A stretch of 64,000 bases of DNA from an uncultured Cytophagia bacterium (GCA_964541895.1 CAZISM010000013.1:8348-72347); one strand, 5' to 3'. Positions 20,570 to 36,746 are shown, counted from the stretch's first letter. A program made the numbers and translations. Notes: a model not told the origin generated them from the letters alone.

Positions 20570-21886
20570 ATGAGCGTGTCTAAAAATGATGGCGTAACGC
20601 GCCGTGAATTCATGAAGCATTCTGCTGTGGCTACGGCGGCCGTAGCCGCTCCTCTCATTTTGCCCAAATCGGTTTTTGGCGCCAACGATCGCGTGCGTGC
20701 GGCGGTTTTGGGCGTGAACGGTCGCGGCAAGGATCACATTAAGGGACTGATGAATCAGGCCAACGTGGAGGTGGTGACGCTGTGCGATCCGGACAGCAAG
20801 ATTTCCGCCGAGCGGGCCAGCCAGTTTGAAAAGCAGTATGCCAAATCGGTCAGGACCGAGCAGGATCTGCGCCGTGTGCTTGACGACAAGGAGATCGATG
20901 TGGTCTCGGTAGCCACGCCCAACCATTGGCACTCGCTGGCGACCATCTGGGCCTGCCAGGCCGGCAAGGATGTCTACGTGGAAAAACCGGGTTCGCACAA
21001 CATCTGGGAAGGCCGCAAAATGGTCGAAGCGGCGCACAAGTATAACCGCATCGTGCAGCACGGTGTCCAGCTGCGCAGCTCCAAAGCCATCCAGGAAGCC
21101 ATCGCCCACCTGCGCAAGGGTACGATCGGCGATGTCTACATGGCGCGCGGTCTGGTTTTTCGCTGGCGTCCCGATATCGGCGTCAAACCGGTCGAGCCGG
21201 TGCCGGAAGGGCTGAATTACGATCTGTGGCTGGGTCCGGCGGCCTATCGGCCTTTTTCGCGCAATCACGTTCATTACAACTGGCATTGGACTTGGGAATT
21301 CGGCAACGGCGATGTCGGCAATCAGGGCATCCATGAAACCGACCTGTGCATGTGGGGTTTGGATGTGGGATTGCCGGAGGTGATTACCGGTATGGGCGGC
21401 AAATTTACCTTTGACGATGCCAAAGAGACACCTGAAGTCCTGACGACCCTGTATCACTACCCCAAACAGAAAAAGCTGATCCAGTTTGAGGTCCGCCACT
21501 GGTGCACCAACGCCGAAGACGGCGCTACGGTGGGAAATATTTTCTATGGCACAGAAGGGTATCTGGTGGTCAAAGGCTACAGCGATTATGAAATTTTCCT
21601 GGGTCAGAAAAAAGAACCGGGACCCAAAAACAATGAAGGCGGCGATCACTACGCCAATTTCATTGAAGCGGTGCGGGCGCGCAATCCAAAACTGCAGAAC
21701 GGGCCGGTGGAAACCGCACATCTGTCGTCGGCTCTGGCGCATCTCGGCAATATCGCCTTCCGCCTCGGCAAGGTTTTGCATTTTGATCCTGAAAAAGAAA
21801 AGTTCGTCGGTGACGACGCTAAAGCGGCCAACAAGCTGCTGAAACGCAAATACCGTAAACCCTATATCGTACCCGATAAGGTGTGA
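20570..21886 (+). CDS. Tat-exported Gfo/Idh/MocA-family oxidoreductase
   Basis: TRREFMK twin-arginine leader; LGVNGRG; ATPNHWH; KDVYVEKP; GNQGIHETD. Confidence 0.92.
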   Translation: MSVSKNDGVTRREFMKHSAVATAAVAAPLILPKSVFGANDRVRAAVLGVNGRGKDHIKGLMNQANVEVVTLCDPDSKISAERASQFEKQYAKSVRTEQDLRRVLDDKEIDVVSVATPNHWHSLATIWACQAGKDVYVEKPGSHNIWEGRKMVEAAHKYNRIVQHGVQLRSSKAIQEAIAHLRKGTIGDVYMARGLVFRWRPDIGVKPVEPVPEGLNYDLWLGPAAYRPFSRNHVHYNWHWTWEFGNGDVGNQGIHETDLCMWGLDVGLPEVITGMGGKFTFDDAKETPEVLTTLYHYPKQKKLIQFEVRHWCTNAEDGATVGNIFYGTEGYLVVKGYSDYEIFLGQKKEPGPKNNEGGDHYANFIEAVRARNPKLQNGPVETAHLSSALAHLGNIAFRLGKVLHFDPEKEKFVGDDAKAANKLLKRKYRKPYIVPDKV

Positions 21887-22177: not shown

Positions 22178-24253
22178 ATGAAGATTTTAATAGCTCACTC
22201 CAACGCTTCATATATCGATGCAACCCGGGAATTTCTAAAGGCAAAAGGCGAGGAGTATCAGGCTAGCGGCGCGACAGGTTTGCAGGAGTGTTTGACTCTG
22301 GCTACCAGGCATGATGTCCTGGTGCTGGATAGTGATCTATTAAAAACCGACACCGAAGAAACACTGCATCAGTTATCTCTCCTGGCGGCTTCCATACCGA
22401 TTGTGGTTCTCATGGAGGACCACGAATCCGATCTGGCGATCCGGCTAAAGAACAAGGGCGTGTTTTCAGGCATTTTTAAACGAAAAGGCTACCTTTCGTT
22501 CCTGCCCGCTCATCTTAACGAAGCATATAAATACAAACAGACCAAACTGGCACGACCGGCAGCAGCGCCGGCGCAGCCCAGCATGTACACCCCGTTGATG
22601 CCGGAACGGGCAGCGGCGCGTACCGAGCCTGTTGTGGAACAGGGCCGTAATCAGGACGAGGGCTATTTTATCTGCGACCGGCGCGGCCGTTTTCTTTCCG
22701 CCAGCAACAATGTGTATGCTCTCCTCGGCTATTCTGAAGACGAAGTGATGGAGCTGTCCATCGGTGATCTGCTGAACCGCGAAGACGAATCGATGCTGTT
22801 TAAAAAACTCGCCGAACCGGCGGACACGGCCGGCATGCCGAAAGCGCTCTCACTGGATCTGTTGGATAAATGGGGCGATCGTCATGCCATCGATTTAAAG
22901 CTCAAGGTGTTGTACGATGAAGCGACCGGCAAGCAGGTGATCGGTTTCCGCGGCATCCTCTTTGCACGCCCGGAAGAAAAGGCCGCCGCGCTCGCCGAAG
23001 AGCGCATCGATCAAAAGCTGATGATCAATCATCTCGTAGAGATCGTGCAGCTGGGCTATCAGGAGCCGCTGAACGTATTGCTCAAGCGCATCACCGAAGT
23101 CTCCAGTCAAATCTTTCAATTTAAAAAAGCAACGCTGGCCCTGCTGGATCGACGCCGGCGCTCCTATGTCAAGCATGCACTCGTCGGCTATCATGCGGCC
23201 GAAGGGCCGGGCGGCGAACGCCGGGTCCTGGAAGTTCCGCAGGATGTCATCGAACGCATTTTTGCCGATCAGTTCAAAATCAAAGTGATCTATCACGATC
23301 AGGAAGATATGGACCAGCGCGATCTGGTCGGTGCCGGCCTGATTGAACGCCGCGGCCAGCGCCGGCCGTTGCCGACGCAATGGCATCCGCGCGATCTCAT
23401 TCTCATCAAACTGGCGGACTATAAAGGCGGCCTCTTCGGCTACATCTCGCTGGAAGACCCCATCGAAGATAATTTCCCCACGCAAACGACGTTTCGCAAT
23501 CTGGAAATTTTCGGCCAGTTGACCTCGCTGGCGATCGAGAATTTTTACCGGTTTTCCAACCTGGAGAAACGGAATCGCCGCCTGAAACAGGTGCTGGTGA
23601 CCAGCAACATCTTTAAGCTGTATCTGAGTCTGAACGAACTGCTCAAGGAAGTGGTCTGGTCGGTCAAATTCTCTCTCGAATTCAATCTGGTATCGCTGAT
23701 CCTGATATCCAAAAAAAGCGGTTTGCTGGAGACCAAAGCCGTGGCCTGCGACGACAAGATCAAGCTGCTGCAGATCACCGAACTGCGCTTCGATCTCAAG
23801 GAATACAGCACCCTCTTGAAGGATGCCTATCGCCGCGGCAAGTCCTATCTGGTAACCGAGGAAGAGCCGGTGCTCAAGCACCTCAAACAGGTGTATTACG
23901 GCACGCATACGAACGGTCATTACGTCGACGGCTGGCCGCATCACGCGATGCTGCTGGTGCCGATAAAATCCCGCGAAGGCAAGATCATCGGTTTTATCAT
24001 GGTGGATGATCCGCACGACTGCCGGATGCCGAGCACGGAGACGATGAACATCCTGGAAATTCTCGCCAACCAGGTGGCCATTGCCATCGACAACCGGATG
24101 CTGTATGTGCAGGCGAAAGAACAGCTGCAGCCGCCGGCGGCCGAAGCCGTCAAACCGGAGGAGAGCAAGGAAGCGGACCAGGAGCTCGACTCCAAATCCG
24201 ACGGCATGAACGGCAGCAGCCTGAAGCGTCTCGTAGACCGATTTCTGCGCTAG
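22178..24253 (+). CDS. REC-like + PAS + tandem GAF sensory protein with no recognisable output domain
   Basis: KILIAHS...DVLVLD (REC-like); GYFICDRRGRFLSASNNVYALLGYSEDEV (PAS); two GAF-like blocks ending LAIENF and LANQVAIAIDNRMLY. Confidence 0.8.
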   Translation: MKILIAHSNASYIDATREFLKAKGEEYQASGATGLQECLTLATRHDVLVLDSDLLKTDTEETLHQLSLLAASIPIVVLMEDHESDLAIRLKNKGVFSGIFKRKGYLSFLPAHLNEAYKYKQTKLARPAAAPAQPSMYTPLMPERAAARTEPVVEQGRNQDEGYFICDRRGRFLSASNNVYALLGYSEDEVMELSIGDLLNREDESMLFKKLAEPADTAGMPKALSLDLLDKWGDRHAIDLKLKVLYDEATGKQVIGFRGILFARPEEKAAALAEERIDQKLMINHLVEIVQLGYQEPLNVLLKRITEVSSQIFQFKKATLALLDRRRRSYVKHALVGYHAAEGPGGERRVLEVPQDVIERIFADQFKIKVIYHDQEDMDQRDLVGAGLIERRGQRRPLPTQWHPRDLILIKLADYKGGLFGYISLEDPIEDNFPTQTTFRNLEIFGQLTSLAIENFYRFSNLEKRNRRLKQVLVTSNIFKLYLSLNELLKEVVWSVKFSLEFNLVSLILISKKSGLLETKAVACDDKIKLLQITELRFDLKEYSTLLKDAYRRGKSYLVTEEEPVLKHLKQVYYGTHTNGHYVDGWPHHAMLLVPIKSREGKIIGFIMVDDPHDCRMPSTETMNILEILANQVAIAIDNRMLYVQAKEQLQPPAAEAVKPEESKEADQELDSKSDGMNGSSLKRLVDRFLR

Positions 24254-24294
24254 GCGCGATTCCACTTGAAACTGTTCTTCACCTTTGTTAATTT

Positions 24295-24329
24295 AAACCG
24301 CAATCCCCGTATGGGGCTTGCGGTTTTTT
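24295..24329 (+). terminator. Intrinsic terminator after the REC-PAS-GAF gene
   Basis: AAACCGCAA-T-CCCC-GTAT-GGGG-C-TTGCGG-T6. Confidence 0.7.
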
Positions 24330-24389
24330 CTTTGTGGCGCCCGGCCTTTTATCAGGCTCGGGCCTCGTTCCTGGTTAAGCGGATGACGG

Positions 24390-25358
24390 ATGATGAATCG
24401 TCGCAAATTTGGCCGGACCCTGGCAACCGGCGCGCTGTCGCTCGGCCGCCCAGCCCTGCTCGCCGGCGAGCGCACGGCAGCGGTGGTATGGGCATCCTCC
24501 TCGCTCGTGCGTACGGCGCAGCGCCGCCTGGTCGGTGATCAGGTGTTGCGGCTGCTGGACAAAACCATGGAGGAGTATTTTCACCAGCCGGCTGCCGTTG
24601 CCTGGAAAAAGCTGGTGTCCAGGCAGGATGTGGTGGGACTGAAAGTGAACGCCCTGGCCGGCGCCGGTCTGTCCACACACCGCGAACTGGTCGACGCCAT
24701 CTGCGAACGGCTGCAACAGGCCGGTGTGCTCGCTGAAAACATCATTATCTGGGACCGGCTCAACCGGGACCTGGAGCGCGCCGGCTATTCGATTCACCTC
24801 CGTGGCGCCAGGCCCCGCTGTTACGGCAACGACGTCGCCGGCTACACCGAGCAGATATTTGAATACGGCCAGGTGGGCAGCCGGTTGTCACGCATTGTGA
24901 CCGACCGCTGCAGCGCGCTCATCAATGTCCCGATTCTTAAAGATCACGGGATCGTGGGGGTGAGCGTGGGCATGAAAAACTTTTTTGGCGCCATCGACAA
25001 TCCCAACAAGTATCATGATGCCGTCGGCGACCCCTATGTGGCTGATGTCAATATGCTGGCCCCCATCCGCAGCAAGCTTCGACTCATCATTTGTGATGCG
25101 TTGACCGCTCAGTATGAGGGAGGGCCGCCCTTTATGGAGCAGTGGAGTTGGCCGCTCAACAGCCTCCTGCTCAGCACCGATATGGTTGCCATCGATCGCA
25201 TCGGCTGGGAGATCATTGAGAACAAGCGCAAGGAGGCCGGGCGTCCGCCATTGAAACAAGCGGGGCGCGAACCGCGTTATATTATTACAGCGGGCGATGC
25301 GGATCATCAGCTGGGCGTTGCTGAGCGAACTCGCATCCGGCTGCAGCGGTGTGAATAG
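24390..25358 (+). CDS. DUF362-family protein with Tat-like leader
   Basis: MNRRKFGRTLA; VGLKVN; LINVPILKDH; VGMKNFFG; LIICDAL; DMVAID. Confidence 0.85.
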   Translation: MMNRRKFGRTLATGALSLGRPALLAGERTAAVVWASSSLVRTAQRRLVGDQVLRLLDKTMEEYFHQPAAVAWKKLVSRQDVVGLKVNALAGAGLSTHRELVDAICERLQQAGVLAENIIIWDRLNRDLERAGYSIHLRGARPRCYGNDVAGYTEQIFEYGQVGSRLSRIVTDRCSALINVPILKDHGIVGVSVGMKNFFGAIDNPNKYHDAVGDPYVADVNMLAPIRSKLRLIICDALTAQYEGGPPFMEQWSWPLNSLLLSTDMVAIDRIGWEIIENKRKEAGRPPLKQAGREPRYIITAGDADHQLGVAERTRIRLQRCE

Positions 25359-25418
25359 GGCGGAGCGGCCCGGTGCACGGTTACCACCGTTTTTTTATCC
25401 AACAGGAAGAGTAGGCCC

Positions 25419-26522
25419 ATGGCTACCCGACGTGAATTCATCCGAAATGGCGGTTTCGGCCTGTGCGGTCTGGCGGCCTCCAGGCGGACCGCCGCGGTGC
25501 CGGCCGGAGAACAGCTGGTGGAGGCGCGCTACTATGAAAAACTGGCGGATCGAAAAATAAAGTGTGTGCTCTGCCCCAGGCAGTGCGTGATCGACGACCT
25601 GGAACGCGGCTATTGCGGCGTCCGTGAAAACAGAGGCGGCACCTATTACACGCTGGTTTATGGCAAGGTGGTGAGCGCTCACGTCGACCCGATTGAAAAA
25701 AAACCGCTGTTCCATGTGGTGCCCTCTGCGACAGCCTTTTCTCTGGCAACCGCCGGCTGCAATGTGTTTTGCAAATTTTGCCAGAATTGGGAGATTTCCC
25801 AGGCTCGGCCGGAGCAGATTCCTTATACGGAAATTTCGCCGGCTCGAGTGGCTGAGATCGCACGGTCCAAACAGTGCCCTCTCATCGCCTACACCTATAA
25901 TGAACCGGTCATCTTTACGGAATTTATGTATGATATCGCCCGCGCAGCGGCTGCCGCCGGGGTGCGCAGTGTGATGATCAGCAACGGATTCATTCAGACC
26001 AGGCCGCTGAAGGACCTGTGCAAGGTGCTGCATGCGGTTAAAATAGATCTCAAGGCCTACAGCGAACGGTTTTATAAGGAACTGGTGTCCGGACAGTTGC
26101 GGCCGGTTCTCGACAGCCTGGTCACCCTTCGTCGCGAAAATATGTGGACTGAAATAGTCTACCTGGTAATCCCCGGCCAGAACGATCGTCGTGAGGAGCT
26201 GACCGCTTTGTGTAAATGGATTCGGCAGGAGTTGGGCGCAGAGGTGCCGCTGCATTTCACCCGCTTTTATCCGCAGTACCGCCTGGCCAACCTGCCGCCC
26301 ACCCCTATCGCCACGCTTACCATGGCGCGCGAGATCGGCCTTGCGAGCGGACTGCATTATGTCTATACCGGCAATATCCCCGGCGATCCGGGGGAACACA
26401 CCTATTGTCCCGGTTGTCAGATGGTGCTTGTGCGGCGCTTTGGCTTTTCCGTGCTGGAAAACAAAATCAGGGACAACCGGTGTCCACAATGCAAAACCGT
26501 CATCGCCGGAGTCTGGTCCTGA
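25419..26522 (+). CDS. amrS: AmmeMemoRadiSam-system radical SAM enzyme with Tat-like leader
   Basis: MATRREFIRNG leader; CVLCPRQC, GYCGVREN, DPIEKKPLFH, GCNVFCKFCQNWEISQ (CX3CX2C), YTYNEP, HFTRFYPQY, YVYTGN, TYCPGC. Confidence 0.93.
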   Translation: MATRREFIRNGGFGLCGLAASRRTAAVPAGEQLVEARYYEKLADRKIKCVLCPRQCVIDDLERGYCGVRENRGGTYYTLVYGKVVSAHVDPIEKKPLFHVVPSATAFSLATAGCNVFCKFCQNWEISQARPEQIPYTEISPARVAEIARSKQCPLIAYTYNEPVIFTEFMYDIARAAAAAGVRSVMISNGFIQTRPLKDLCKVLHAVKIDLKAYSERFYKELVSGQLRPVLDSLVTLRRENMWTEIVYLVIPGQNDRREELTALCKWIRQELGAEVPLHFTRFYPQYRLANLPPTPIATLTMAREIGLASGLHYVYTGNIPGDPGEHTYCPGCQMVLVRRFGFSVLENKIRDNRCPQCKTVIAGVWS

Positions 26523-26564
26523 CCAGGCCTGGCCTGGTCAGCATATGGAGGGAGAGTCGTTGAG

Positions 26565-28055
26565 ATGAGCAGGATCAACAAAAGCAAATGCGTCGCCGCC
26601 GGCCTCATGATCCTAGGCCTGCTGCCTTTTGTTTCGTTTGCGTCAGAGGATGGCGAGCGGCCGCCAGCTGTGGCCGGACAGTTTTATCCCGCGGGCCGTG
26701 CCGAACTGGCGCAATTGGTCAAAATGTATCTTGATCAGGCTGAAAAAGTGTCGGTAAAGGGAACGATCAAGGGGCTTGTAGTGCCGCACGCGGGATATGT
26801 CTATTCCGGCGCCACCGCAGCTGCCGGGTATGCGCAGGTAGCAGGCGGCCGCTACGATGTTGTGGTTGTGCTCGCCCCCAGTCATCGCGATCCGTTTATG
26901 GGCGCGACCATTTACCCCGGCACAGCCTATCAGACGCCGTTGGGTTTGGCCGGAATAGAACGGACGTTGGCGAACCAGCTGGTGGAGGCGAACACGGGTT
27001 TTGTTTTTTCGGAACTCGGTCACCGCGCCGAGCACAGTCTGGAAGTGCAATTGCCGTTCCTGCAGACCGTGTTGCCGGGGGTGCCGATCATCCCGGTCAT
27101 GGTGGGCGGCTACGACCGGCCAAAACTCGAGCGGATGGCGGAGACGCTGGCGCACGTGCTTAAAGGCCGGCGGCCGCTCCTGATAGCCAGCTCTGATCTG
27201 TATCATGGCGAGTCCTACGACGAATGCGAAAAGATCAATACCCGCACCATTCATGCTATCATGGCTTTAAAGCCGGGGAGCCTGTGCGATGGATTTCTCG
27301 ACGAATCATTGCAGGCGTGCGGCGGCGGCCCCATATCGTTGATGGAATCGGCGCTAAAAAGGCTCGGCGCTGATCGTGCTGTTTTGTTGAGCCGAACTAA
27401 TTCCAACGATGTCACTGGACAACGTGGCGGCTATGTGGTCGGCTATGCGGCCATAGCCATCACAGGCGGGGAGACCAAGATGGAAAATCCAAATAAAATC
27501 GAATACCAACCACTGGATAAAGCGGCTCAACACGAGCTGTTAACCATGGCCCGTCAAGCCATCAGCCAATACCTGCAAACACGGCGTATTCCTGCTTTCA
27601 CGCCTGCTCTGCAAGTGCTCAAGGAAAAGCGTGGCGTGTTCGTTACGCTCACCGAAGGGGGCGATCTGCGCGGGTGCATCGGCTATCATGAGGCCGATCG
27701 ACCGCTCTATGAGCTGGTACCGGACCGGGCCGTGGCGGCGGCCTTTGAGGATCCCCGTTTCATGCCGCTGCGCAGCGAAGAGTTGGCAAAAATTAAAATT
27801 AAAGTCTCCGTCTATCTGACCAATGTGTACCGCATCAACTCCTTGGATGAATTCAAGATGGGGGAGCATGGCATCATCATGATCAAAAACGGCCGCGGCG
27901 CCACCTACCTGCCCGAAGTGCCGCTGGAAGCAGGTTGGAAAACCGTGCGTGAAGAGATGGAAAGTTTGTGCCAAAAGGCCGGTCTGCCGCGCGATGCCTG
28001 GAAAGAGGGAGCCGAGTTTCATGTGTATCGCACACAGGTGTTTGGGGAAAAATAG
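26565..28055 (+). CDS. AmmeMemoRadiSam protein B (MEMO1-like) fused to protein A (AMMECR1-like), with a signal-peptide-like N-terminus
   Basis: RPPAVAGQFYP, VPHAGYVYSG, EHSLEVQLPFLQ, SSDLYH, CGGGP, VVGYAA (MEMO); RGVFVTL, LRGCIG, AAFEDPRF, ATYLPEV (AMMECR1). Confidence 0.92.
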   Translation: MSRINKSKCVAAGLMILGLLPFVSFASEDGERPPAVAGQFYPAGRAELAQLVKMYLDQAEKVSVKGTIKGLVVPHAGYVYSGATAAAGYAQVAGGRYDVVVVLAPSHRDPFMGATIYPGTAYQTPLGLAGIERTLANQLVEANTGFVFSELGHRAEHSLEVQLPFLQTVLPGVPIIPVMVGGYDRPKLERMAETLAHVLKGRRPLLIASSDLYHGESYDECEKINTRTIHAIMALKPGSLCDGFLDESLQACGGGPISLMESALKRLGADRAVLLSRTNSNDVTGQRGGYVVGYAAIAITGGETKMENPNKIEYQPLDKAAQHELLTMARQAISQYLQTRRIPAFTPALQVLKEKRGVFVTLTEGGDLRGCIGYHEADRPLYELVPDRAVAAAFEDPRFMPLRSEELAKIKIKVSVYLTNVYRINSLDEFKMGEHGIIMIKNGRGATYLPEVPLEAGWKTVREEMESLCQKAGLPRDAWKEGAEFHVYRTQVFGEK

Positions 28056-28146: not shown

Positions 28147-29430
28147 ATGCAGAGCGCCGCAGCCAAATCCGCAGGCAAAGTCATCCTGCTCCTGATGGCT
28201 CTGATGCAGTTCAGCTCCTGTTCGGATCGAAAGCGGGATAATCCGCTTGATCCTGAAAATCCGCGCACGCATGGCAAACCCGAGGGAGTGGCGGCAGTCG
28301 CCATAGCCAGGTCGGTGCAGGTTTCCTGGTCGCCGCTGGATCTGACAGATCCACATACGGTGGTGATTTATCGAAAAAGCGCAGCGGAGCCCTCGTTCCG
28401 CGAGATCGGTACTGTGTCCGGACCGGAGCATCGCTTTATCGATCAGGGATTGCAGTACGGTTCCGCCTATGCTTATTACATCACCGTGCGGGTCGGGAGC
28501 TATGAAACGCCGCCGTCGGATATCGTGGAAGCGACGCCGGGCCCCACATTTACATGGATTGCCGACCGGACGAGCGGGTATATAGCCTGTCTGAGTCACG
28601 ATCTCACCAGGACGTTGGGAAAATTTGGGGTATTGAATTATCCCTATCTGGTCAGTGCCAGCCCCAAAGAGGGGGCGGCGTGGCTCTATTCCCGGTTCAC
28701 AGAGGAAATCTACAAGGTCGATCATGAGGGCGCCTTGCTGGCGAGTGCGTATAATCTGCCCAACCTGGCAGCGATGCAGGTCGACACCTTGCAAAGCAAG
28801 GTATGGGTCGCCGGCACAACGCCCAGTCAGGTCTTGCGGCTCGGTAGGGATGGGAGGATAGAAATATCCATCACTTCGGTGATGCAGCCGGCAGCGCTGG
28901 CTGTGGATGCTGTTTCGCGAAATGTGTTTGTGATCGATGCGGCCAGAAAGAAAGTGCTCTCCTATTCCACCAGCGGCGCTCTGATCGCCGAATCGGTCAC
29001 GTTCCTGGCGCCTTCTTCTCTGGCGCTGGATACAAGCGCGGGTACGGTTTGGGTGACGGACAGCCTTCGTATGGTGCAACTGCGGTACGACCTGACCACC
29101 ACCGGTGTCATCATCACCGGCCTGGCGCGTGCTTCGCTGGTGGCGACGGATCCGAGCCGGCAAACCGTTTGGGTGGTCGATCTGGAACTGGCGGGTAAAC
29201 CGGCGACGCTGTGGCGGCTCAGCCGCTCCGGCGCGGTCCTGTCCAAACTCTCCCGATTCGGCCATCCGCAATGCCTGGCTGTCAACGAATTCGATGGCTC
29301 CTGTCTGCTGGGGGATATCAGCTATGCCTATGGCGGCTTGTACCGAATCTTGCCGGATGGCAGCCAGTACGACTATATCGGCGCCTGGTACACGCCCTAT
29401 GACATCGATATTGAATATCACAGTTGGTAG
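28147..29430 (+). CDS. Lipoprotein with FN3-like domain and NHL-like beta-propeller
   Basis: Lipobox-like FSSC followed by RDNPLDP; VSW...VIYR...FID..L..G..Y.YYI (FN3); repeated P..LAVD...VWV.D blades. Confidence 0.75.
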   Translation: MQSAAAKSAGKVILLLMALMQFSSCSDRKRDNPLDPENPRTHGKPEGVAAVAIARSVQVSWSPLDLTDPHTVVIYRKSAAEPSFREIGTVSGPEHRFIDQGLQYGSAYAYYITVRVGSYETPPSDIVEATPGPTFTWIADRTSGYIACLSHDLTRTLGKFGVLNYPYLVSASPKEGAAWLYSRFTEEIYKVDHEGALLASAYNLPNLAAMQVDTLQSKVWVAGTTPSQVLRLGRDGRIEISITSVMQPAALAVDAVSRNVFVIDAARKKVLSYSTSGALIAESVTFLAPSSLALDTSAGTVWVTDSLRMVQLRYDLTTTGVIITGLARASLVATDPSRQTVWVVDLELAGKPATLWRLSRSGAVLSKLSRFGHPQCLAVNEFDGSCLLGDISYAYGGLYRILPDGSQYDYIGAWYTPYDIDIEYHSW

Positions 29431-29448: not shown

Positions 29449-31890
29449 GTGCGCAGGGTAAGGAATGTGTATGATCGGTATCACCACATGAGGCATCGGT
29501 TTAACCTCCGCTCCTGGCTGTATGCGTCAGCCGCGTTGATCGGGCTTGCTGTTTTTGTCTACTGGGGGCCAAGGGTGTTGACCCTTGTGCCCAGAGACCT
29601 GCGCTATGACCGCAACGAGATTTTGCAGCGGGCCATGGAGCTTGCTCCGCAATGGGGTTACGATATTACGTCGCTGTCGTCGCGGGTGGTGACCAACCAT
29701 AATCGCGGCTTGTTGCGTTATATTCAATCGCATCATGGTCGGGAGCGGCACCCTGAGCTGTTGAACCGTTATCCGGCCTATTTCTGGCAGGTGTTCTGGT
29801 TCGATCCCGGCGATAAACTCAAGCTGGTGCCCGCCTCGGATCGAAACGAACAGCCGTTTACGTTTTCCCAGAACGGGTTTTCCCTGTTGCTGGATGTTCA
29901 GGGCGGTCTGCTCGGTTTTCGTTTCAAAGGCAAGCCGGACAGCACGGTGTTGTCGCCTGACCAGGCCCGCAGCGTGGCGGATTCAATGATGCAGCAATTC
30001 TGCTCGGCCGGCGAGTCTCTGCCGACCTATTCCTACGACAATCACGTGCGTAGCGATATCGGCAGCACGTTCACTTTTTTATATTCCTTTGTACAGAAAA
30101 ACGACGGCATCAACAAGCAGTTGCAGATCAAACTCGAAGGCCGCCGTATCACCTCCATGGAGCTGGTGTACACCCCTACTGTGGAGGTTGGGCCCGACGT
30201 CAAGTCCGAGGAGATGTTTTTCATTATCGTCATGCTGCTGCTGATGGGCGTATATGCGTTTCATTTTATAAAGCGGCTGCGGGATGATCTCATAGATTTT
30301 CGCACCACGGCACCGGTCGCCGTGCTGATGAGCATCACGACGATGACCATGGTTTTGGCGGTGACCTGGGGCACGGATCTATTTTCCATGGTGGGCAGCA
30401 TTTTAACCGCCATGATTTTTGTTCCCGTGGTGTTGTGGCTGGCCTATGCCTGCGGTGACAGCCTGGCGCGCGAAGTATGGGATAACCGGCTGCTGACATT
30501 GGACGGCTTGTACCGGGGGTTTGTTTATCACGAAGGGCTGGGCAGATCCCTGCTGCGCGGAGCCGGTCTGGGCATGATGGTACTGGGTGTGATCACGGTT
30601 ATCCTCTATGTGGCCGGTTTCTGGGTCCAACCCGATCTGATCGAATGGAGCACCGATGCCACCATGGTGTTGGCCCGTCAGCCGCTGTTCTCCGGACTGG
30701 CTGATATTTTATATATGACGTTATGGGTCCAGTTCGGTGTGGTGCTTTTTGTGACGTCGCTGGCTGCGAAATATCTGGTCAAGCCGGGCTGGATTGTAGC
30801 GGCGGTGAGCCTGTTTTGGGGTATCGGCCTGCATTACATGTTCAATTTGCCATCGCATCCGCTGTGGTTGAGCATTATGGTGACAGCGGTGATCGGCGGT
30901 GTGCAGACCTATGCTTTGGTCCGCTACGATTTCCTTACCGGCATCGTGGCCCAGGCAGCCTGGATCAGCGGCTTTTTGCTGCTAAAGCTGGAGTTGTTGA
31001 ACCACCCCACTTATACCAGCAGTGCGGCGGGTATTGCCGTCCTCTGGATCGTCCTGCTGCTCCTGGCGGTGTTTACCTGGCGGCGACCGGTGAGCGAACG
31101 GGAATTGCGGCGGTACCAGCCCGGTCCTTCGCGCGGCATCATGGCCCGCATCCGGCTGCGACGTGAACTGGAGATCGCCCGGCAGGTGCAGCTGAATTTT
31201 TTGCCCAAGTCGATTCCTTCGCTGGATGGGCTGGAGGTGGCCAGCGTGTGCGAGGCGGCCCTGGAAGTCGGTGGGGACTATTTCGATTTTATCCGTCTCA
31301 GTGATACCAGGCTCGGCATCGCCATCGGCGATGTAACCGGCAAGGGTATTTCCGCCGCTTTTTACATGACCCTGAGCAAAGGATTTCTGCGATCTCTCAC
31401 CCATACCATCTCCAGCCCCGGGGAGGTGATGCGGCAGATGAACCAGTTGTACTGGGAGAACGTCGACCGCCAGCATTTCATCAGCATGATCTATGGTGTG
31501 TTCGACATGGAGTCGAGAAGCTTCACCTTTGTGCGCGCCGGTCATAATCCCGTCATCGCCGTGCAGAACGGCCGTTGTTCCGTTCTGACCCCCGGCGGCA
31601 TGGCGTTGGGACTGGACAGCGGCCACATGTTTGCCAAAGTGATGGAAGAACGCACGCTGCCTTTGCAGCGCGGTGATATGTTTGTATTTTTTACCGACGG
31701 ATTTTCCGATGCCAGAAACACGAGCCAGCAGGAATTCGGCGAGGAGCAGTTGTATCAATTGATCGAAAAGCACAAACACCGGTCCGCAGAAGAACTGATG
31801 CGCACCCTTACCCGCGAAGTGAAGAAATTTGTCGGCTCTGCGCTGGAGCACGACGACATGACGATGGTGATCGTACGGATAACGGCATGA
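29449..31890 (+). CDS. Polytopic membrane PP2C/SpoIIE phosphatase with a large extracytoplasmic domain
   Basis: N-terminal TM, ~200-aa soluble domain, about 10 further TM helices, then RRELEIARQVQ, GGDYFD, GDVTGKG, RAGHNP, FTDG, HDDMT. The true start may be a later Met. Confidence 0.9.
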   Translation: MRRVRNVYDRYHHMRHRFNLRSWLYASAALIGLAVFVYWGPRVLTLVPRDLRYDRNEILQRAMELAPQWGYDITSLSSRVVTNHNRGLLRYIQSHHGRERHPELLNRYPAYFWQVFWFDPGDKLKLVPASDRNEQPFTFSQNGFSLLLDVQGGLLGFRFKGKPDSTVLSPDQARSVADSMMQQFCSAGESLPTYSYDNHVRSDIGSTFTFLYSFVQKNDGINKQLQIKLEGRRITSMELVYTPTVEVGPDVKSEEMFFIIVMLLLMGVYAFHFIKRLRDDLIDFRTTAPVAVLMSITTMTMVLAVTWGTDLFSMVGSILTAMIFVPVVLWLAYACGDSLAREVWDNRLLTLDGLYRGFVYHEGLGRSLLRGAGLGMMVLGVITVILYVAGFWVQPDLIEWSTDATMVLARQPLFSGLADILYMTLWVQFGVVLFVTSLAAKYLVKPGWIVAAVSLFWGIGLHYMFNLPSHPLWLSIMVTAVIGGVQTYALVRYDFLTGIVAQAAWISGFLLLKLELLNHPTYTSSAAGIAVLWIVLLLLAVFTWRRPVSERELRRYQPGPSRGIMARIRLRRELEIARQVQLNFLPKSIPSLDGLEVASVCEAALEVGGDYFDFIRLSDTRLGIAIGDVTGKGISAAFYMTLSKGFLRSLTHTISSPGEVMRQMNQLYWENVDRQHFISMIYGVFDMESRSFTFVRAGHNPVIAVQNGRCSVLTPGGMALGLDSGHMFAKVMEERTLPLQRGDMFVFFTDGFSDARNTSQQEFGEEQLYQLIEKHKHRSAEELMRTLTREVKKFVGSALEHDDMTMVIVRITA

Positions 31891-33983
31891 AACAGGAGCT
31901 GAAAAACTTGACCGCGTTGCCGCTGTTGATACCGATCAGCCTGGCCCTGGTGGCCGTGGCGATCGACATCCTCATCATCGGCGGCCTTGATCCTTCCCCG
32001 GCCATCTACATCCGCGAGGTGCTGATCGTGAGCGGCCTGATCCTGTCCCTGCCCATCATCTATCGGCAAAAATGGACTTCGGACCGTAACGTGTTGCGCG
32101 GCTTACGTTCGCTTTTCCTCATGGTGGCCATGACGTTCATGGCGCTGCTGTTGACCAACCTGGATATTTTCGATCTGCGGTCGCGTGCGGAGGCGGCCGG
32201 CTCCATCTATGGCAGTCCGGTCAGTTATCTCTTTATCCTGGCCTGGGCGGTACTGACCGCCCTCTTTGCCCTGCTGGTAATGGGTACGCTGCGCAACCTG
32301 ATCTTCATCAAACAGCGGCGGCACACGGCGCGCAACTTTCATATGCTGGTCTTTTTTCTGTTGTTTTATGCGGTGCTGAATTTTCGTAACTTGTCCAATC
32401 TCGCCGGCCGTTTTTCGTTCGCTTTTAACCAGGATCTGGTCGGCAACATCATTCTGTTTGTGCTGATCAATCTGATCGTGATCAACAGCCTGCGGGTGTC
32501 CTGGCTGAACTATTTGAACAAAAAGCAAAAGCTGGCCTGTTTCTGGGGCGGGCTGATCCTGATCACCATGCAATGGGTACTGGCCGGCAAGTTTCACGAC
32601 ACCAATCCGGCCGCGCTCTTTAGCCCGGTGCTCGGCAAGTTTGTCGATATGGCCATGTGGCTTTTGGCCATTTACCTGACCGTGGCGTTTATATCGCTCA
32701 TCTTTCTCCTGCCGACGGCCCAGCTGTATGACCGCAAGATGCGCCAGATCTCTTCTCTGCACCATCTCAGCCGTGCCGTCAGCGTCGAGTTCGATTTTAA
32801 AAAGCTGGTGCAAATCGTGGTGCGTCTGGCGGCGGATGTCAGCGAAGCGGATTGTTGCTGGCTGGAGCTGTTCGAAACCCGGCAGCAAAAGCTGAAAGTT
32901 TCTTCCGCGCTGCAAGTCGGCGAAGGTCAGCCCAAAGATCGCGATCCGGATGGCACAGACCCGCTGACCCGCTGGCTGCTGAACGGCCGGGAACCGGCGC
33001 TGATCAATCATCTGGCCAAAAGCCCCTACGCCCATGCCCTGGTGCACTGGAAACCGGACATTCAGTCCCTGATCGCGGTACCGCTCACCACCAGCGACAA
33101 GGTGCTGGGTTTGCTGTTTGTGTGCAAGCGTCTGGAATATGGTTTTGAGCAGGACGACGTCAACACCCTGCGGGCGTTTGGCGAGCAGGTGGTGATCGCC
33201 ATTGAAAACGTGCGTCTGATCGAAGCGTCGCTGGTCAAGGAACGGCTGGAGCAGGAACTGCGCATCGCCCACGAAGCGCAGATGAAGCTGCTGCCCCGCG
33301 TGATGCCTTCGTCCGACTATTTTGAAGTGTATGCCCAGTGCATAACCGCCAATGAGGTCGGCGGCGATTATTACGATTTTTTCCCCCTGGCCGACGAATG
33401 CATCGGTCTCGTCGTGGGCGACGTGTCCGGCAAGGGCGCTTCGGCCGCGTTTTATATGGCCGAGCTCAAGGGGATCATGGAGGCCTCGTCCAAAAACGAG
33501 CCTTCGCCCAAACGGGTGTTGAGCCTGGCCAATGAAACGCTGTATCATAACATCGAACGTGATAATTTTGTCAGCGTGGTGTACGGCATTCTTGATCCGC
33601 TGAAAAAGTGCCTGACCTTTTGCCGCGCCGGCCACACGCCGGTCTATCTCGCGGCCGCCGATGCGGAGGAGGTACAGGTGCTGGAGCCGCCGGGCATCGG
33701 CTTGGGTCTGGATCGCGGCGTCCTCTTTGCGGAAACTCTGGAGGAAACCACCGTGCCGCTGCACTCCGGCGACACGGTGCTGCTGTATACCGATGGCGCC
33801 ATTGAACCGCGCAACACGTCCGGCGAGGAGTTTGGCGAACACCGGCTGCGGGAGGCCTTCCATCGCAATCGCCTGCTGCCGGCCCGCGACCTGGTCGAAC
33901 AGCTGGTCAGCGATATTCGCCGTCATGTAGGCTCGGCGCAAGCCTATGACGATCTCACGTTCATCGCCGTCAAGATTAAATAG
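31887..33983 (+). CDS. Polytopic membrane GAF-PP2C/SpoIIE phosphatase
   Basis: About 8 N-terminal TM helices, GAF, EQELRIAHEAQ, GGDYYD, GDVSGKG, RAGHTP, YTDG, YDDLT; ATGA overlap with the previous gene. Confidence 0.9.
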   Translation: MKQELKNLTALPLLIPISLALVAVAIDILIIGGLDPSPAIYIREVLIVSGLILSLPIIYRQKWTSDRNVLRGLRSLFLMVAMTFMALLLTNLDIFDLRSRAEAAGSIYGSPVSYLFILAWAVLTALFALLVMGTLRNLIFIKQRRHTARNFHMLVFFLLFYAVLNFRNLSNLAGRFSFAFNQDLVGNIILFVLINLIVINSLRVSWLNYLNKKQKLACFWGGLILITMQWVLAGKFHDTNPAALFSPVLGKFVDMAMWLLAIYLTVAFISLIFLLPTAQLYDRKMRQISSLHHLSRAVSVEFDFKKLVQIVVRLAADVSEADCCWLELFETRQQKLKVSSALQVGEGQPKDRDPDGTDPLTRWLLNGREPALINHLAKSPYAHALVHWKPDIQSLIAVPLTTSDKVLGLLFVCKRLEYGFEQDDVNTLRAFGEQVVIAIENVRLIEASLVKERLEQELRIAHEAQMKLLPRVMPSSDYFEVYAQCITANEVGGDYYDFFPLADECIGLVVGDVSGKGASAAFYMAELKGIMEASSKNEPSPKRVLSLANETLYHNIERDNFVSVVYGILDPLKKCLTFCRAGHTPVYLAAADAEEVQVLEPPGIGLGLDRGVLFAETLEETTVPLHSGDTVLLYTDGAIEPRNTSGEEFGEHRLREAFHRNRLLPARDLVEQLVSDIRRHVGSAQAYDDLTFIAVKIK

Positions 33984-34015
33984 CCGTCTGTCATATACTC
34001 TATCGGGAGGAGTGA

Positions 34016-34372
34016 ATGGAAAATTTCAAGATTCAACGACGTGATCTGGACCGCTTGTCGACGCTGTCGATCAGCGGCTTCCTGGACGCGCACACCGCAC
34101 CCAAGCTGGAGGAGGCCATCCAGGCTCTGATGGACGAGGGGCGCTTCCACATCATTGTCAATTTCAGCGATCTCACTTATATCAGCAGTGCCGGGTTAGG
34201 TGTGTTCATGGGATTTATCGAGGAGATCCGTAACAAGAGCGGCGATATCAAGATGTGCCAGATGTCGCCCAAGATCTATCGCGTATTTGATCTGCTTGGG
34301 TTTCCGACCATCTATCAGATCTTTGATCGGGAAGAAGAGGCCATGGCACATTTCCAAACGGTGCAAGGTTGA
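34016..34372 (+). CDS. rsbV: STAS anti-sigma factor antagonist (RsbV/SpoIIAA-like)
   Basis: ISGFLDAHTAPKL, TYISSAGLGVFM (phosphorylatable Ser), IYRVFDLLGF. Confidence 0.92.
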   Translation: MENFKIQRRDLDRLSTLSISGFLDAHTAPKLEEAIQALMDEGRFHIIVNFSDLTYISSAGLGVFMGFIEEIRNKSGDIKMCQMSPKIYRVFDLLGFPTIYQIFDREEEAMAHFQTVQG

Positions 34373-34422
34373 ACCGGCACGCAACTCTGGAATGGGCACA
34401 TGAACATGAAAAACAGCCATAG

Positions 34423-34899: not shown

Positions 34900-34915
34900 C
34901 ATCCGAGAAGCCGGT

Positions 34916-36667: not shown

Positions 36668-36746
36668 GCCGATTCTGTGTCTGTGCCCGGGCATCCTGTC
36701 TGTTCCAGCCGGAGCCGCCAGCCCAGGCTAAACCAAAACTAAACCC

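What the first reader, a model, noticed from the sequence alone, without database searches (positions are those of the whole stretch)
24390..28055. AmmeMemoRadiSam operon in which every component has an export-type leader
Seen: DUF362 begins MNRRKFGRTL, the radical SAM enzyme begins MATRREFIRNGGFGLCGLAA (both twin-arginine-like), and the MEMO1-AMMECR1 fusion begins with a basic/hydrophobic/AxA-like Sec leader. Known: the AmmeMemoRadiSam triad is a widespread system of unknown function, generally taken to be cytoplasmic, and radical SAM chemistry needs SAM and a reductant. Inference: a periplasmic variant, with DUF362 as a possible Fe-S/redox partner, acting on an extracytoplasmic substrate. 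That would challenge the usual nucleic-acid-modification guess for the family.
Basis: partly seen in the sequence, partly recalled or inferred. Interest (0 to 1): 0.68.

Follow-up and report, generated by a model that had tools for sequence, protein, structure and literature searches.

The report
Exported AmmeMemoRadiSam operon with DUF362
This three-gene operon encodes a radical SAM enzyme and its Memo-AMMECR1 and DUF362 partners, all carrying conserved export leaders, and it belongs to a large, undescribed clade whose leaders, domain fusions and neighbouring genes place this normally cytoplasmic chemistry outside the cytoplasm.

Summary
Window 24390-28055 holds three co-oriented genes:
- DUF362 (322 aa)
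- the AmmeMemoRadiSam radical SAM enzyme AmrS (367 aa)
- a Memo-AMMECR1 fusion (496 aa)

Each has an N-terminal extension that ends where its conserved fold begins: NRRKFGR on DUF362, TRREFIR on AmrS, and a classical Sec n-h-c leader on the fusion.

The leaders are not start-codon artefacts. The twin-arginine motif is found in 113/120 AmrS and 105/120 DUF362 homologues. 98 of 105 assessable fusion homologues have a hydrophobic leader, some with a lipobox.

Leader-bearing AmrS proteins cluster together in a tree and occur in many phyla. Their nearest relatives are fused or adjacent to membrane and extracytoplasmic redox modules: CcdA/DsbD_2, NapH-like Fer4_5, and FMN_bind with an intact flavinylation motif. 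Some are fused to CBM11.

"DUF362 as Fe-S partner" is not: it has no Cys motif and a LarA-like fold.

Open problems:
- the source of SAM outside the cytoplasm
- this operon has no linked electron-transfer module
- its own Tat h-regions are short
- some lineages carry Sec-type leaders on AmrS

I found no paper describing this. I rate it a new variant of a known kind.

The parts
24307..24332 (+). Terminator-like hairpin plus T-run closing the upstream response-regulator/PAS/GAF gene. It marks the 5' boundary of the operon.
24390..25358 (+). DUF362 gene (322 aa), LarA-like fold, no Fe-S motif
   Evidence: Pfam DUF362 at 66.6 bits. AF2 model pLDDT 89.9. Best Foldseek hits are LarA-like enzymes, E 1e-5. 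Invariant residues are listed.
24390..24467 (+). DUF362 Tat-type leader, residues 1-26: MMNRRKFGR-TLATGALSLG-R-PALLAG. Likely cleavage is around LLA/GE.
   Evidence: Read directly from the sequence. An RR motif is present in 105-109 of 120 homologues. Residues 1-28 have low pLDDT.
25377..25400 (+). Small hairpin plus T-run in the DUF362-AmrS intergenic gap. It is a possible attenuator and was not tested.
   Evidence: terminator-like sites are not enriched over shuffles
25419..26522 (+). AmrS, the AmmeMemoRadiSam radical SAM enzyme (367 aa), with a PFL-AE-like core
   Evidence: TIGR04337 at 377.9 bits. AF2 pLDDT 93.3. Nearest fold is PFL-AE, TMt 0.80-0.82.
25419..25505 (+). AmrS Tat-type leader, residues 1-29: MA-TRREFIR-NGGFGLCGLAAS-RR-TAAVPA/G. 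It contains Cys16 at RR+11.
25758..25781 (+). Radical SAM cluster motif C114-x3-C118-x2-C121 (CNVFCKFC)
   Evidence: Invariant columns in alignment A1
26565..28055 (+). Memo-AMMECR1 fusion gene (496 aa)
   Evidence: Pfam Memo 184.6 bits and AMMECR1 166.6 bits. TIGR04336 and TIGR04335 hits. Metal-site and active-site motifs are conserved.
26565..26642 (+). Sec-type signal peptide, residues 1-26. n-region MSRINKSK, h-region CVAAGLMILGLLPFV, c-region SFA/SED.
   Evidence: Read from the sequence. Maximum hydropathy 2.66 and a 19-residue uncharged run. 98 of 105 assessable homologues have a hydrophobic leader.
26658..27461 (+). Memo domain (residues 32-299) with PHAGY, PSH, EHS and SSDLYH motifs
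27534..28043 (+). AMMECR1 domain (residues 324-493) with LRGCIG and DPRF motifs
   Evidence: motif definition from PMC2034487

Best explanation
The operon encodes an extracytoplasmic (periplasmic) version of the AmmeMemoRadiSam system, in a KSB1-like sludge bacterium.

Shown:
- All three proteins carry N-terminal leaders that are conserved as leaders across divergent homologues.
- The leader-bearing AmrS proteins cluster together.
- The closest relatives of that cluster are fused or adjacent to membrane and extracytoplasmic redox modules.

Inferred route:
- AmrS folds in the cytoplasm, where it receives its [4Fe-4S] cluster and fills its Cys-rich N- and C-terminal metal sites. It is then exported folded by Tat.
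- DUF362 has a LarA-like fold and probably binds a cofactor or ligand. It also goes by Tat.
- The Memo-AMMECR1 fusion goes unfolded by Sec and takes up its metal outside.

Inferred action:
- In the anoxic periplasm, the PFL-AE-like AmrS performs SAM-dependent H-atom abstraction on a substrate held by Memo-AMMECR1, or on Memo-AMMECR1 itself. Candidate substrates are an envelope or periplasmic protein, a glycan or a small molecule, not RNA.
- In sister lineages the cluster is re-reduced, and the cysteines are kept reduced, by electrons passed across the membrane through CcdA/DsbD_2, FMN_bind and NapH-like modules.
- This operon has no such module. SAM would have to travel bound to the exported enzyme, either for a single turnover or as a regenerated cofactor.
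- DUF362 is the clade-specific fourth component. It is more likely a substrate-processing or ligand-handling enzyme than an electron carrier.
For: Identity and starts.

Leader conservation:
- AmrS: 113/120 homologues have the Tat motif. RR is invariant in 32 sequences at 34-84% identity.
- DUF362: 105/120.
- Fusion: 98/105 assessable homologues have a hydrophobic leader, 16 of them lipobox-like.
- 39% of DUF362 homologues have Cys at RR+21 after (I/L)-P-G.

AF2 marks residues 1-28 and 1-33 as unstructured, and the fold starts right after.

Family structure: among the 150 best 50%-identity representatives, there are 30 Tat, 3 Sec/TM, 15 N-terminal fusions and 86 leaderless. The leader and fusion forms make one contiguous block in an NJ tree.

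GTDB genomes: about 40 Tat-type, about 12 Sec-type and about 27 leaderless loci among the 80 nearest. The Tat type occurs in KSB1, Eisenbacteria, Acidobacteriota, Desulfobacterota, Planctomycetota, Verrucomicrobiota, Zixibacteria, Omnitrophota, Bacteroidales and others.

Wherever a leader-bearing AmrS had a Memo-AMMECR1 fusion beside it, the fusion carried a leader. That is 17 loci by my crude classifier.

Architecture:
- signal/TM + FMN_bind + AmrS with no TM in between (P0382, P0393)
- signal + CBM_11 + AmrS (P0394)
- signal + beta-propeller + AmrS (P0370)
- DsbD_2 + AmrS (P0367, P0372)
- DsbD_2 + FMN_bind + Fer4_5 + AmrS (P0376)

The fused FMN_bind domains keep the D-x-[IV]-[ST]-G-A-T flavinylation motif. 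This modification is described as extracytosolic in PMC8238504.

Separate CcdA/DsbD_2, DsbD_2-FMN_bind-Fer4_5 or NapH-like genes lie next to the system in 12 loci.

AmrS has a PFL-AE-like fold, TMt 0.8. The catalytic motifs of all domains are intact.

The organism uses Tat elsewhere: a neighbouring Gfo/Idh/MocA gene hits Pfam TAT_signal. AMMECR1 is a strong anaerobe marker (PMC13386939).
Against: - No dedicated signal-peptide predictor could be run. Pfam TAT_signal and TIGR01409 do not hit the two window leaders, and TAT_signal hits only 2 of 32 aligned homologues.
- The window's own Tat h-regions are weak. AmrS has 12 uncharged residues. DUF362 has 10, interrupted by Arg20 where a 93%-identical relative has Cys.
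- To my knowledge, neither SAM nor a low-potential reductant is known in the periplasm.
- The window has no DsbD_2, FMN_bind or NapH-like gene within 64 kb.
- Some loci are mixed. L025 has a Tat AmrS with a leaderless AMMECR1. L001 has an extra leaderless AMMECR1. L061 has a leaderless AmrS next to a fusion with a leader.
- About 12 loci put a Sec-type leader or lipobox on AmrS. This is hard to reconcile with known Fe-S assembly.
- P0371 (TM + AmrS + Memo + AMMECR1) has more positive charge after its TM helix, which would favour a cytoplasmic orientation.
- Everything rests on MAG sequences. There is no experiment.
Confidence: 0.6

Rival explanations
1. Mature first, then export. AmrS does its radical SAM chemistry in the cytoplasm, where SAM and flavodoxin or ferredoxin are available. 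It acts on a partner such as folded DUF362, or on itself. It is then merely co-exported or escorts the product. Outside the cell it is catalytically spent, and only Memo-AMMECR1 and DUF362 work there.
For: This removes the SAM and reductant problem. To my knowledge, hitchhiking of folded complexes is established for Tat substrates. The window operon has no linked electron-transfer module. Tat-AmrS next to a leaderless AMMECR1 in L025 and L001 fits co-export of a complex. The PFL-AE-like fold suggests a protein substrate.
Against: Direct fusion of AmrS to flavinylatable FMN_bind domains with no TM in between, and recurrent linkage to CcdA/DsbD_2 and NapH-like proteins, argue that AmrS is supplied with electrons outside. 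The Sec-exported Memo-AMMECR1 cannot be met in folded form in the cytoplasm. The ~12 Sec-type AmrS loci cannot be explained by hitchhiking.
Confidence: 0.2
2. The N-terminal segments are membrane anchors or assembly tags, not export signals. The enzymes stay on the cytoplasmic face of the membrane and hand electrons or products to membrane partners.
For: Conserved Cys residues sit inside the AmrS leader h-region, which is unusual for a cleaved signal peptide. The window's h-regions are short. P0371 has a charge distribution that favours N-out/C-in. In NosR-type proteins the Fer4_5 region is, to my knowledge, cytoplasmic, so some fusions (P0365, P0368) could place AmrS inside.
Against: The near-perfect S/T-R-R-x-F-[LI]-K consensus is invariant across phyla. 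AxA-like sites end the leaders. Partners carry lipobox variants. Most Sec-type leaders have positive charge before the hydrophobic core, not after it. FMN_bind and CBM_11 are fused to AmrS with no intervening TM.
Confidence: 0.12
3. Annotation artefact. The true starts lie downstream (for example GTG at Val34 of AmrS, which has GGAGA upstream), and the leader-like peptides are untranslated.
For: An in-frame GTG with a plausible SD exists at AmrS codon 34. A few database homologues are called from downstream starts (P0038, P0053, P0113).
Against: The RRxF motif is conserved at the amino-acid level in 113/120 and 105/120 homologues and in six-frame reads of about 40 independent genomes. A good SD precedes each of the upstream ATGs of AmrS and the fusion. 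Each leader ends exactly at its fold boundary.
Confidence: 0.03

Closest known systems
Canonical (leaderless) AmmeMemoRadiSam system: TIGR04335 AmrA/AMMECR1, TIGR04336 AmrB/Memo, TIGR04337 AmrS
   Same: All three family models are hit above their curated cutoffs and the genes are adjacent. The CX3CX2C, RGCIG/DPRF and Memo His motifs are intact. Memo-AMMECR1 fusions and AmrS-AMMECR1-Memo triple fusions also exist in leaderless forms.
   Different: Every component here has an export leader, and a Tat-DUF362 gene is added. The classical forms start MKEAxFYxK with no extension and are presumed cytoplasmic. The only published functional proposal, RNA base modification (PMC2034487), does not fit a periplasmic location.
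Pyruvate formate-lyase activating enzyme (PFL-AE, PDB 3c8f/3cb8) and other glycyl-radical activases
   Same: PFL-AE is the best structural match to the AmrS core (TMt 0.80-0.82, rmsd 2.6-3.2 A) and the best sequence match in the PDB. It is a small partial-barrel radical SAM enzyme that acts on a protein loop.
   Different: The TIGR02493 score is 54 bits against a cutoff of 232, so AmrS is not a member. AmrS has extra N-terminal (C49, C52, C66) and C-terminal (C330, C333, C355, C358) Cys sites. It has no glycyl-radical enzyme partner. PFL-AE is cytoplasmic.
Tat-exported cofactor enzymes served by NosR/NapH/PceC-type membrane flavo-Fe-S proteins (NosZ/NosR, reductive dehalogenase PceA/PceC) and by CcdA/DsbD thiol-electron conduits
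   Same: The logic matches. A cofactor-loaded enzyme is exported folded by Tat. Electrons arrive through a membrane protein that has an extracytoplasmic flavinylated FMN_bind domain and Fer4_5 motifs, or through DsbD-type Cys pairs. These module types are described in PMC8238504. They are fused or adjacent to AmrS relatives.
   Different: The exported enzyme is a radical SAM protein, which needs SAM as well as electrons. PMC8238504 mentions no radical SAM, Memo or AMMECR1 partner. The window operon itself lacks these modules.
Anaerobic sulfatase-maturating enzymes (anSME) and QhpD-type maturases
   Same: From my own knowledge: these are radical SAM enzymes whose substrates are exported proteins.
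   Different: From my own knowledge: they have no signal peptide and act in the cytoplasm before the substrate is exported. Here the radical SAM enzyme itself carries the leader.
LarA superfamily (DUF2088; nickel-pincer nucleotide racemases/epimerases), Pfam clan CL0471
   Same: The best fold matches of the DUF362 model are LarA-like enzymes (9q3k, 9q3j, 7s91, 4nar, 9eia; E 1e-5 to 6e-3). DUF362 and DUF2088 share a Pfam clan (PMC11770544).
   Different: The relationship is only at fold level (10-15% identity, TMq about 0.45-0.48). No PDB sequence matches, even with a profile. DUF362 is about 100 residues shorter than LarA. Cofactor-binding residues were not mapped. Secreted DUF362 proteins fused to CBM9 or dockerin have been reported (PMC5742341).

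Membership tests
AmmeMemoRadiSam system | Radical SAM enzyme matching TIGR04337 above the curated cutoff, with CX3CX2C | tested here: met
   377.9 bits against a cutoff of 220. C114, C118 and C121 are invariant.
AmmeMemoRadiSam system | Memo homologue (TIGR04336, protein B) | tested here: met
   241.7 bits against a cutoff of 26, residues 32-299. PHAGY, PSH and SSDLYH align to MEMO1.
AmmeMemoRadiSam system | AMMECR1 homologue (TIGR04335, protein A) with RGChG and DxRa motifs | tested here: met
   161.3 bits against a cutoff of 99, residues 324-493. LRGCIG and DPRF are present. The motifs are as defined in PMC2034487.
AmmeMemoRadiSam system | The three components are encoded together | tested here: met
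   Same strand, with gaps of 60 and 42 nt. The same arrangement occurs in L001 and in about 25 other loci.
Tat (twin-arginine) substrates | S/T-R-R-x-F-L-K consensus near the N-terminus | tested here: met
   T-R-R-E-F-I-R in AmrS and N-R-R-K-F-G-R in DUF362. RR is 100% conserved, F at RR+2 is 93-97%, L/I at +3 is 82-84%, and K/Q/R is preferred at +4 in homologues.
Tat (twin-arginine) substrates | Moderately hydrophobic uncharged h-region of about 13 or more residues, followed by a c-region with an AxA-type site | tested here: inconclusive
   In the window the uncharged runs are 12 residues (AmrS) and 10 residues (DUF362, interrupted by R20). Homologues are mostly longer. VPA/G and LLA/G sites are present.
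Tat (twin-arginine) substrates | Recognition by curated Tat signal models (Pfam PF10518, TIGR01409) or by TatP/SignalP | tested here: not met
   Neither window protein nor its 45-residue N-terminus is hit. PF10518 hits only 2 of 32 aligned AmrS homologues, although it does hit the neighbouring Gfo/Idh/MocA protein. TatP and SignalP were not available.
Tat (twin-arginine) substrates | Export depends on TatC and on the RR pair | not testable with these tools
   This needs reporter fusions in wild-type and tatC backgrounds.
Sec signal peptide (SPase I type) | Positive n-region, 10-20 residue hydrophobic h-region, small residues at -3 and -1 | tested here: met
   MSRINKSK / CVAAGLMILGLLPFV / SFA|S. 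Maximum hydropathy is 2.66. The pattern is conserved in 98/105 homologues, 16 of them lipobox-like. This was judged by rule; no trained predictor was available.
Glycyl-radical enzyme activases (PFL-AE family) | Score above the family cutoffs (TIGR02493, TIGR02494) and a glycyl-radical enzyme partner | tested here: not met
   54.2 bits against a cutoff of 231.75, and 45.8 against 174.35. No glycyl-radical enzyme lies nearby. The similarity is at fold level only.
DUF362 (PF04015) / LarA-like clan CL0471 | Pfam DUF362 domain | tested here: met
   66.6 bits against a cutoff of 24, residues 82-273.
DUF362 (PF04015) / LarA-like clan CL0471 | Nickel-pincer nucleotide binding residues of LarA | not tested
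   Only a fold-level match was obtained. No residue-level alignment was available.
Fe-S redox partner (DUF362 fused to a 4Fe-4S ferredoxin domain) | Ferredoxin-type Cys motif or Fer4 domain | tested here: not met
   No Fer4 hit. Only C174 is invariant and C144 nearly so among 34 homologues.

The most novel reading that the evidence does not exclude
Radical SAM catalysis really takes place outside the cytoplasm. In this reading, a widespread anaerobe-associated clade of AmrS enzymes is exported, by Tat in most lineages and by Sec or as lipoproteins in some PVC and Omnitrophota lineages. It is re-reduced by dedicated transmembrane electron conduits (CcdA/DsbD_2, flavinylated FMN_bind, NapH-like). 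It acts with Memo-AMMECR1, and in KSB1, Acidobacteriota and Eisenbacteria also with a LarA-like DUF362, on an envelope or extracellular substrate. This would imply either a route for SAM to the periplasm or use of SAM as a carried, regenerated cofactor. It would also give the first experimental handle on what Memo and AMMECR1 do.
Probability: 0.4. Interest if true: 0.88.

Novelty: new variant of a known kind. Interest (0 to 1): 0.7.

Why it matters
**Radical SAM location.** To my knowledge, radical SAM enzymes are treated as strictly cytoplasmic, because they need SAM, a low-potential electron donor and the Fe-S assembly machinery. A coherent, phylum-spanning clade whose members carry Tat or Sec leaders would put that assumption to a direct test. 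The same holds for members fused to flavinylated, CcdA-type and carbohydrate-binding extracytoplasmic modules.

**Function of the triad.** The AmmeMemoRadiSam triad is one of the most widespread systems of unknown function. Its Memo and AMMECR1 components have human homologues linked to disease. The only published prediction is RNA modification. An exported version narrows the substrate search to envelope, periplasmic or extracellular molecules. It also offers simple genetic tests: leader fusions, tatC dependence, and dependence on the linked electron conduits.

**A practical correction.** In this clade DUF362 should be thought of as a LarA-like enzyme, not as an Fe-S protein.

Tried and rejected
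1. Curated Tat models. I ran Pfam and NCBIfam on the 45-residue N-termini, the full proteins and 32 homologues. They gave no hit for the window and only 2/32 for homologues. I treat these models as insensitive here, not as evidence against a Tat signal, because they do hit the neighbouring Gfo/Idh/MocA protein.

2. A second, leaderless copy in the window. None is present, and there is no DsbD_2, FMN_bind or NapH-like gene either. The rest of the genome could not be searched. Related genomes show both situations: L038 has a leaderless and a Tat AmrS in tandem, and L001 has an extra leaderless AMMECR1.

3. Other conserved neighbours, such as a precursor peptide or a SAM transporter. All-against-all clustering of ORFs within 7 kb of AmrS in 81 loci found only the Memo-AMMECR1 fusion, DUF362 and DsbD_2-type proteins. 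The remaining clusters are mostly shadow ORFs overlapping the real genes or occur in only a few loci.

4. Sequence-level link of DUF362 to solved structures. None was found, even with a profile. Only the fold search worked.

5. Literature. Searches for AmmeMemoRadiSam, AMMECR1 with radical SAM, MEMO1 or periplasm, radical SAM with twin-arginine, "periplasmic radical SAM", and flavinylation with radical SAM found nothing describing exported AmrS.

6. RNA evidence. Only DNA metagenome runs (sludge) hold the sequence, so transcription could not be checked.

7. Lipobox reading of the Cys in the AmrS leader. I rejected this because the Cys lies only about 6-7 residues after RRxFLK, in the middle of the h-region.

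My leader classifier for the loci is crude. It misclassified a few loci (L033, L035, L041, L060) when compared with the sequences printed, so the locus counts are approximate.

Full report
**What is there**

Window 24390-28055 carries three co-oriented ORFs.
- The gaps between them are 60 and 42 nt.
- A terminator-like hairpin (24307-24332) closes the preceding response-regulator/PAS/GAF gene.
- The first ORF is a DUF362 protein: Pfam 66.6 bits, cutoff 24.
- The second is the AmmeMemoRadiSam radical SAM enzyme, AmrS: TIGR04337 at 377.9 bits, cutoff 220.
- The third is a Memo-AMMECR1 fusion: TIGR04336 at 241.7 bits and TIGR04335 at 161.3 bits.
- Catalytic signatures are intact. AmrS has CX3CX2C at C114/C118/C121. 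Memo has PHAGY, PSH, EHS and SSDLYH. AMMECR1 has LRGCIG and DPRF.
- The surrounding genes are ordinary chromosomal ones: ribosomal protein S1, a DEAD-box helicase, a LapB-like protein, a SPOR protein and several SpoIIE phosphatases.
- The best homologues come from candidate division KSB1/Zhuqueibacterota MAGs.
- The sequence is found in sludge metagenomes.
- An 84%-identical relative has the same synteny.

**The leaders are real features**

Each protein has an extension that stops where its family profile and its predicted fold begin.
- AmrS: MA-TRREFIR-NGGFGLCGLAAS-RR-TAAVPA/GEQ. The profile starts at residue 36, and the AF2 model has low confidence for residues 1-33.
- DUF362: MMNRRKFGR-TLATGALSLG-R-PALLA/GE. 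AF2 confidence is low for residues 1-28.
- Fusion: MSRINKSK-CVAAGLMILGLLPFV-SFA/SED. The Memo profile starts at residue 32.
- Good Shine-Dalgarno sequences precede the upstream ATGs of AmrS and the fusion.
- Only three of 114 long six-frame ORFs in the window have a strict Tat consensus. These are the two above plus a Gfo/Idh/MocA oxidoreductase that also hits Pfam TAT_signal.

Conservation is the stronger argument.
- 113 of the 120 best AmrS homologues (59-95% identity) have the motif.
- In a 32-sequence alignment reaching 34% identity, the two arginines are invariant and Phe at RR+2 is at least 90% conserved, while the rest of the leader varies freely.
- 105 of 120 DUF362 homologues have the motif.
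- 98 of 105 assessable Memo-AMMECR1 homologues have a hydrophobic leader, 16 of them with a lipobox-like Cys.
- 39% of DUF362 homologues have a Cys at RR+21 after (I/L)-P-G, which is lipobox-like.

The alternative of a downstream true start, for example GTG at Val34 of AmrS, is therefore very unlikely.

**How wide the phenomenon is**

I searched the mature AmrS domain against 1.84 billion cluster representatives. This gave 1,486 representatives at E<=1e-30. The best 150 break down as follows:

| N-terminal type | Count |
|---|---|
| Tat leader | 30 |
| Sec/TM-type leader | 3 |
| Large N-terminal fusion | 15 |
| Leaderless (20 of them AmrS-AMMECR1-Memo-type C-terminal fusions) | 86 |
| Other | 8 |
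| Fragment | 8 |

In a neighbour-joining tree of the catalytic domains, the leader-bearing and N-fused forms occupy one contiguous block with only two leaderless intruders. This points to an old subfamily, not to scattered acquisitions of a leader.

In species-representative GTDB genomes, the 80 nearest loci split as follows. The counts are approximate because my classifier is crude.
- About 40 are Tat-type: KSB1, Eisenbacteria, Acidobacteriota, Desulfobacterota and other "delta" lineages, Planctomycetota, Verrucomicrobiota, Zixibacteria, Chloroflexia, Omnitrophota, Bacteroidales, Halanaerobiaceae and Myxococcales.
- About 12 are Sec-type or lipoprotein-type: mainly Omnitrophota, Chlamydiota and Planctomycetales.
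- About 27 are leaderless: Desulfobacterales, Nitrospirota and archaea.

By the classifier, every Memo-AMMECR1 fusion found beside a leader-bearing AmrS (17 loci) also carries a leader.

DUF362 sits directly upstream of AmrS in 12 loci. All of them have a Tat-type AmrS, and none has a leaderless one.

**Independent support from architecture and neighbours**

The N-terminal fusions of the nearest AmrS relatives are of the following kinds:
- signal/TM + FMN_bind + AmrS, with no membrane span between the domains (P0382, P0393)
- signal + CBM_11 + AmrS (P0394)
- signal + beta-propeller + AmrS (P0370)
- DsbD_2 + AmrS (P0367, P0372)
- FMN_bind + Fer4_5 + AmrS (P0365, P0368)
- DsbD_2 + FMN_bind + Fer4_5 + AmrS (P0376)

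All five fused FMN_bind domains keep the D-x-[IV]-[ST]-G-A-T flavinylation motif. ApbE-type flavinylation of such domains is described as an extracytosolic modification in PMC8238504. That paper does not mention radical SAM, Memo or AMMECR1 partners.

Unbiased clustering of neighbouring ORFs found a separate CcdA/DsbD_2 gene next to the system in 10 loci. Three of these are DsbD_2-FMN_bind-Fer4_5 proteins. NapH-like Fer4_5 ferredoxins lie upstream of DUF362 in L002 and L006.

These modules move electrons from the cytoplasm to the outside. An exported Fe-S, thiol-dependent enzyme would need exactly that.

The window itself has none of them within 64 kb.

**What the parts look like**

- The AmrS core is closest in structure to PFL-activating enzyme (TMt 0.80-0.82). 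It fails the activase family cutoffs. It has additional conserved Cys groups at both ends. This fits a cofactor-loaded passenger that needs Tat.
- DUF362 has no ferredoxin domain and one invariant Cys. Its confident model (pLDDT 89.9) resembles LarA-like nickel-pincer racemases (E 1e-5, TMq about 0.48). This agrees with the shared Pfam clan (PMC11770544).
- Secreted DUF362 proteins fused to CBM9 or dockerin have been reported (PMC5742341).

**Mechanism I consider most likely (confidence about 0.6)**

AmrS and DUF362 fold and load cofactors in the cytoplasm and leave by Tat. Memo-AMMECR1 leaves by Sec.

In the anoxic periplasm, the PFL-AE-like AmrS abstracts a hydrogen atom from a substrate presented by Memo-AMMECR1, or from Memo-AMMECR1 itself. 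DUF362 handles a small-molecule substrate or ligand. AMMECR1 is a strong anaerobe marker (PMC13386939).

Which steps are shown and which are inferred:
- Shown: the leaders, their conservation, the clade structure, and the fusions and linked genes.
- Inferred: actual export, the order of events, the substrate, and how SAM is supplied.

The main rival (about 0.2) is that the radical chemistry happens before export and AmrS is only co-exported. A membrane-anchor reading (about 0.12) and a start-codon artefact (about 0.03) are less likely.

**Weak points**

- No trained signal predictor was available, and the curated Tat HMMs do not fire.
- The window's two Tat h-regions are short, at 12 and 10 uncharged residues. 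DUF362 has Arg20 where its 93%-identical relative has Cys.
- To my knowledge, SAM is not known outside the cytoplasm.
- Mixed loci exist (L025, L001, L061).
- About 12 lineages put a Sec or lipoprotein leader on an Fe-S enzyme, which current knowledge of Fe-S assembly does not explain.
- AmrS Tat leaders carry conserved Cys at RR+7/8 and RR+10/11. 93% have at least one, and the window has Cys16. I cannot explain this.

**Novelty**

The family and its three components are known, and secreted DUF362 proteins are known. I could not find any description of the following:
- a coherent exported clade of AmrS
- its linkage to CcdA/DsbD_2, FMN_bind and NapH-like modules
- the Tat-DUF362 companion

I rate it a new variant of a known kind, with interest 0.7. 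It is a surprising location for a radical SAM enzyme, and it gives a testable handle on a long-standing family of unknown function.

Noticed in passing
window 25464-25466 (AmrS Cys16); homologues P0001-P0120: AmrS Tat leaders have conserved Cys inside the h-region. Cys frequency is 16-22% at RR+7/+8 and 35-36% at RR+10/+11. 93% of leaders have at least one Cys and 60% have at least two. DUF362 leaders from the same clade lack Cys there. The position is too close to the RR motif to be a lipobox, and I have no explanation.
   Followed up: partly
L016, L019, L029, L031, L034, L036, L039, L040, L043, L049 (N-termini of AmrS): In Omnitrophota, Chlamydiota and Planctomycetales genomes, AmrS carries a classical Sec-type cleavable leader or a lipobox (L031: LVTC) instead of a Tat leader. 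Most of these loci (L019, L029, L031, L034, L036, L039, L043, L049) have a CcdA/DsbD_2 gene beside the system. How a [4Fe-4S] enzyme would be matured after Sec export is unclear.
   Followed up: partly
L038:8669-11120: An Omnitrophota genome has a leaderless AmrS (353 aa) and a Tat-leader AmrS (391 aa) close together on the same strand. This suggests that cytoplasmic and exported paralogues can coexist in one genome.
   Followed up: no
L001:12604-13170; L023 and L025 (AMMECR1 ORFs): Leaderless stand-alone AMMECR1 genes lie next to Tat-type AmrS. In the KSB1 locus L001 this is in addition to the exported fusion. Possible explanations are Tat hitchhiking or a cytoplasmic step.
   Followed up: no
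window 24447-24449 (DUF362 Arg20): The window's DUF362 has Arg in the middle of its h-region, where the 93%-identical relative P0241 has a Cys in a lipobox-like AVGC context. The window's copy may therefore be a soluble or poorly exported variant of a Tat lipoprotein.
   Followed up: no
window 20570-21886 (+): A Gfo/Idh/MocA oxidoreductase has a clear Tat leader (VTRREFMKHSAVATAAVAAPL) and a Pfam TAT_signal hit. This shows that the organism uses Tat export.
   Followed up: partly
window 29449-37922 (+): A run of four SpoIIE/PP2C phosphatase genes lies just downstream of the operon. One is membrane-bound, two have GAF domains, and one has a response-regulator receiver. A response-regulator/PAS/GAF protein (22178-24253) lies just upstream. 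This dense partner-switching or signalling neighbourhood is conserved upstream in an 84%-identical relative.
   Followed up: no
window 28147-29430 (+): An NHL-repeat protein with a lipoprotein-type leader (LMALMQFSSC) starts 92 nt after the fusion gene. It is not conserved next to the system in other loci.
   Followed up: partly
window 25377-25400 (+): A small GC hairpin followed by TTTTTTT lies in the 60-nt gap between DUF362 and AmrS. It could be an internal attenuator. Terminator-like sites in this region are not enriched over shuffles.
   Followed up: no
window 25395-26489 (-) and 22895-24265 (-): Long antisense ORFs (364 and 456 aa) overlap AmrS and the upstream regulator. I read them as shadow ORFs. 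Antisense ORFs overlapping AmrS recur across the other loci.
   Followed up: partly
P0409, P0424 (and other 900-1150 aa representatives): Leaderless single-chain AmrS-AMMECR1-Memo triple fusions exist. They confirm that the three activities work together in one compartment in the cytoplasmic branch.
   Followed up: partly
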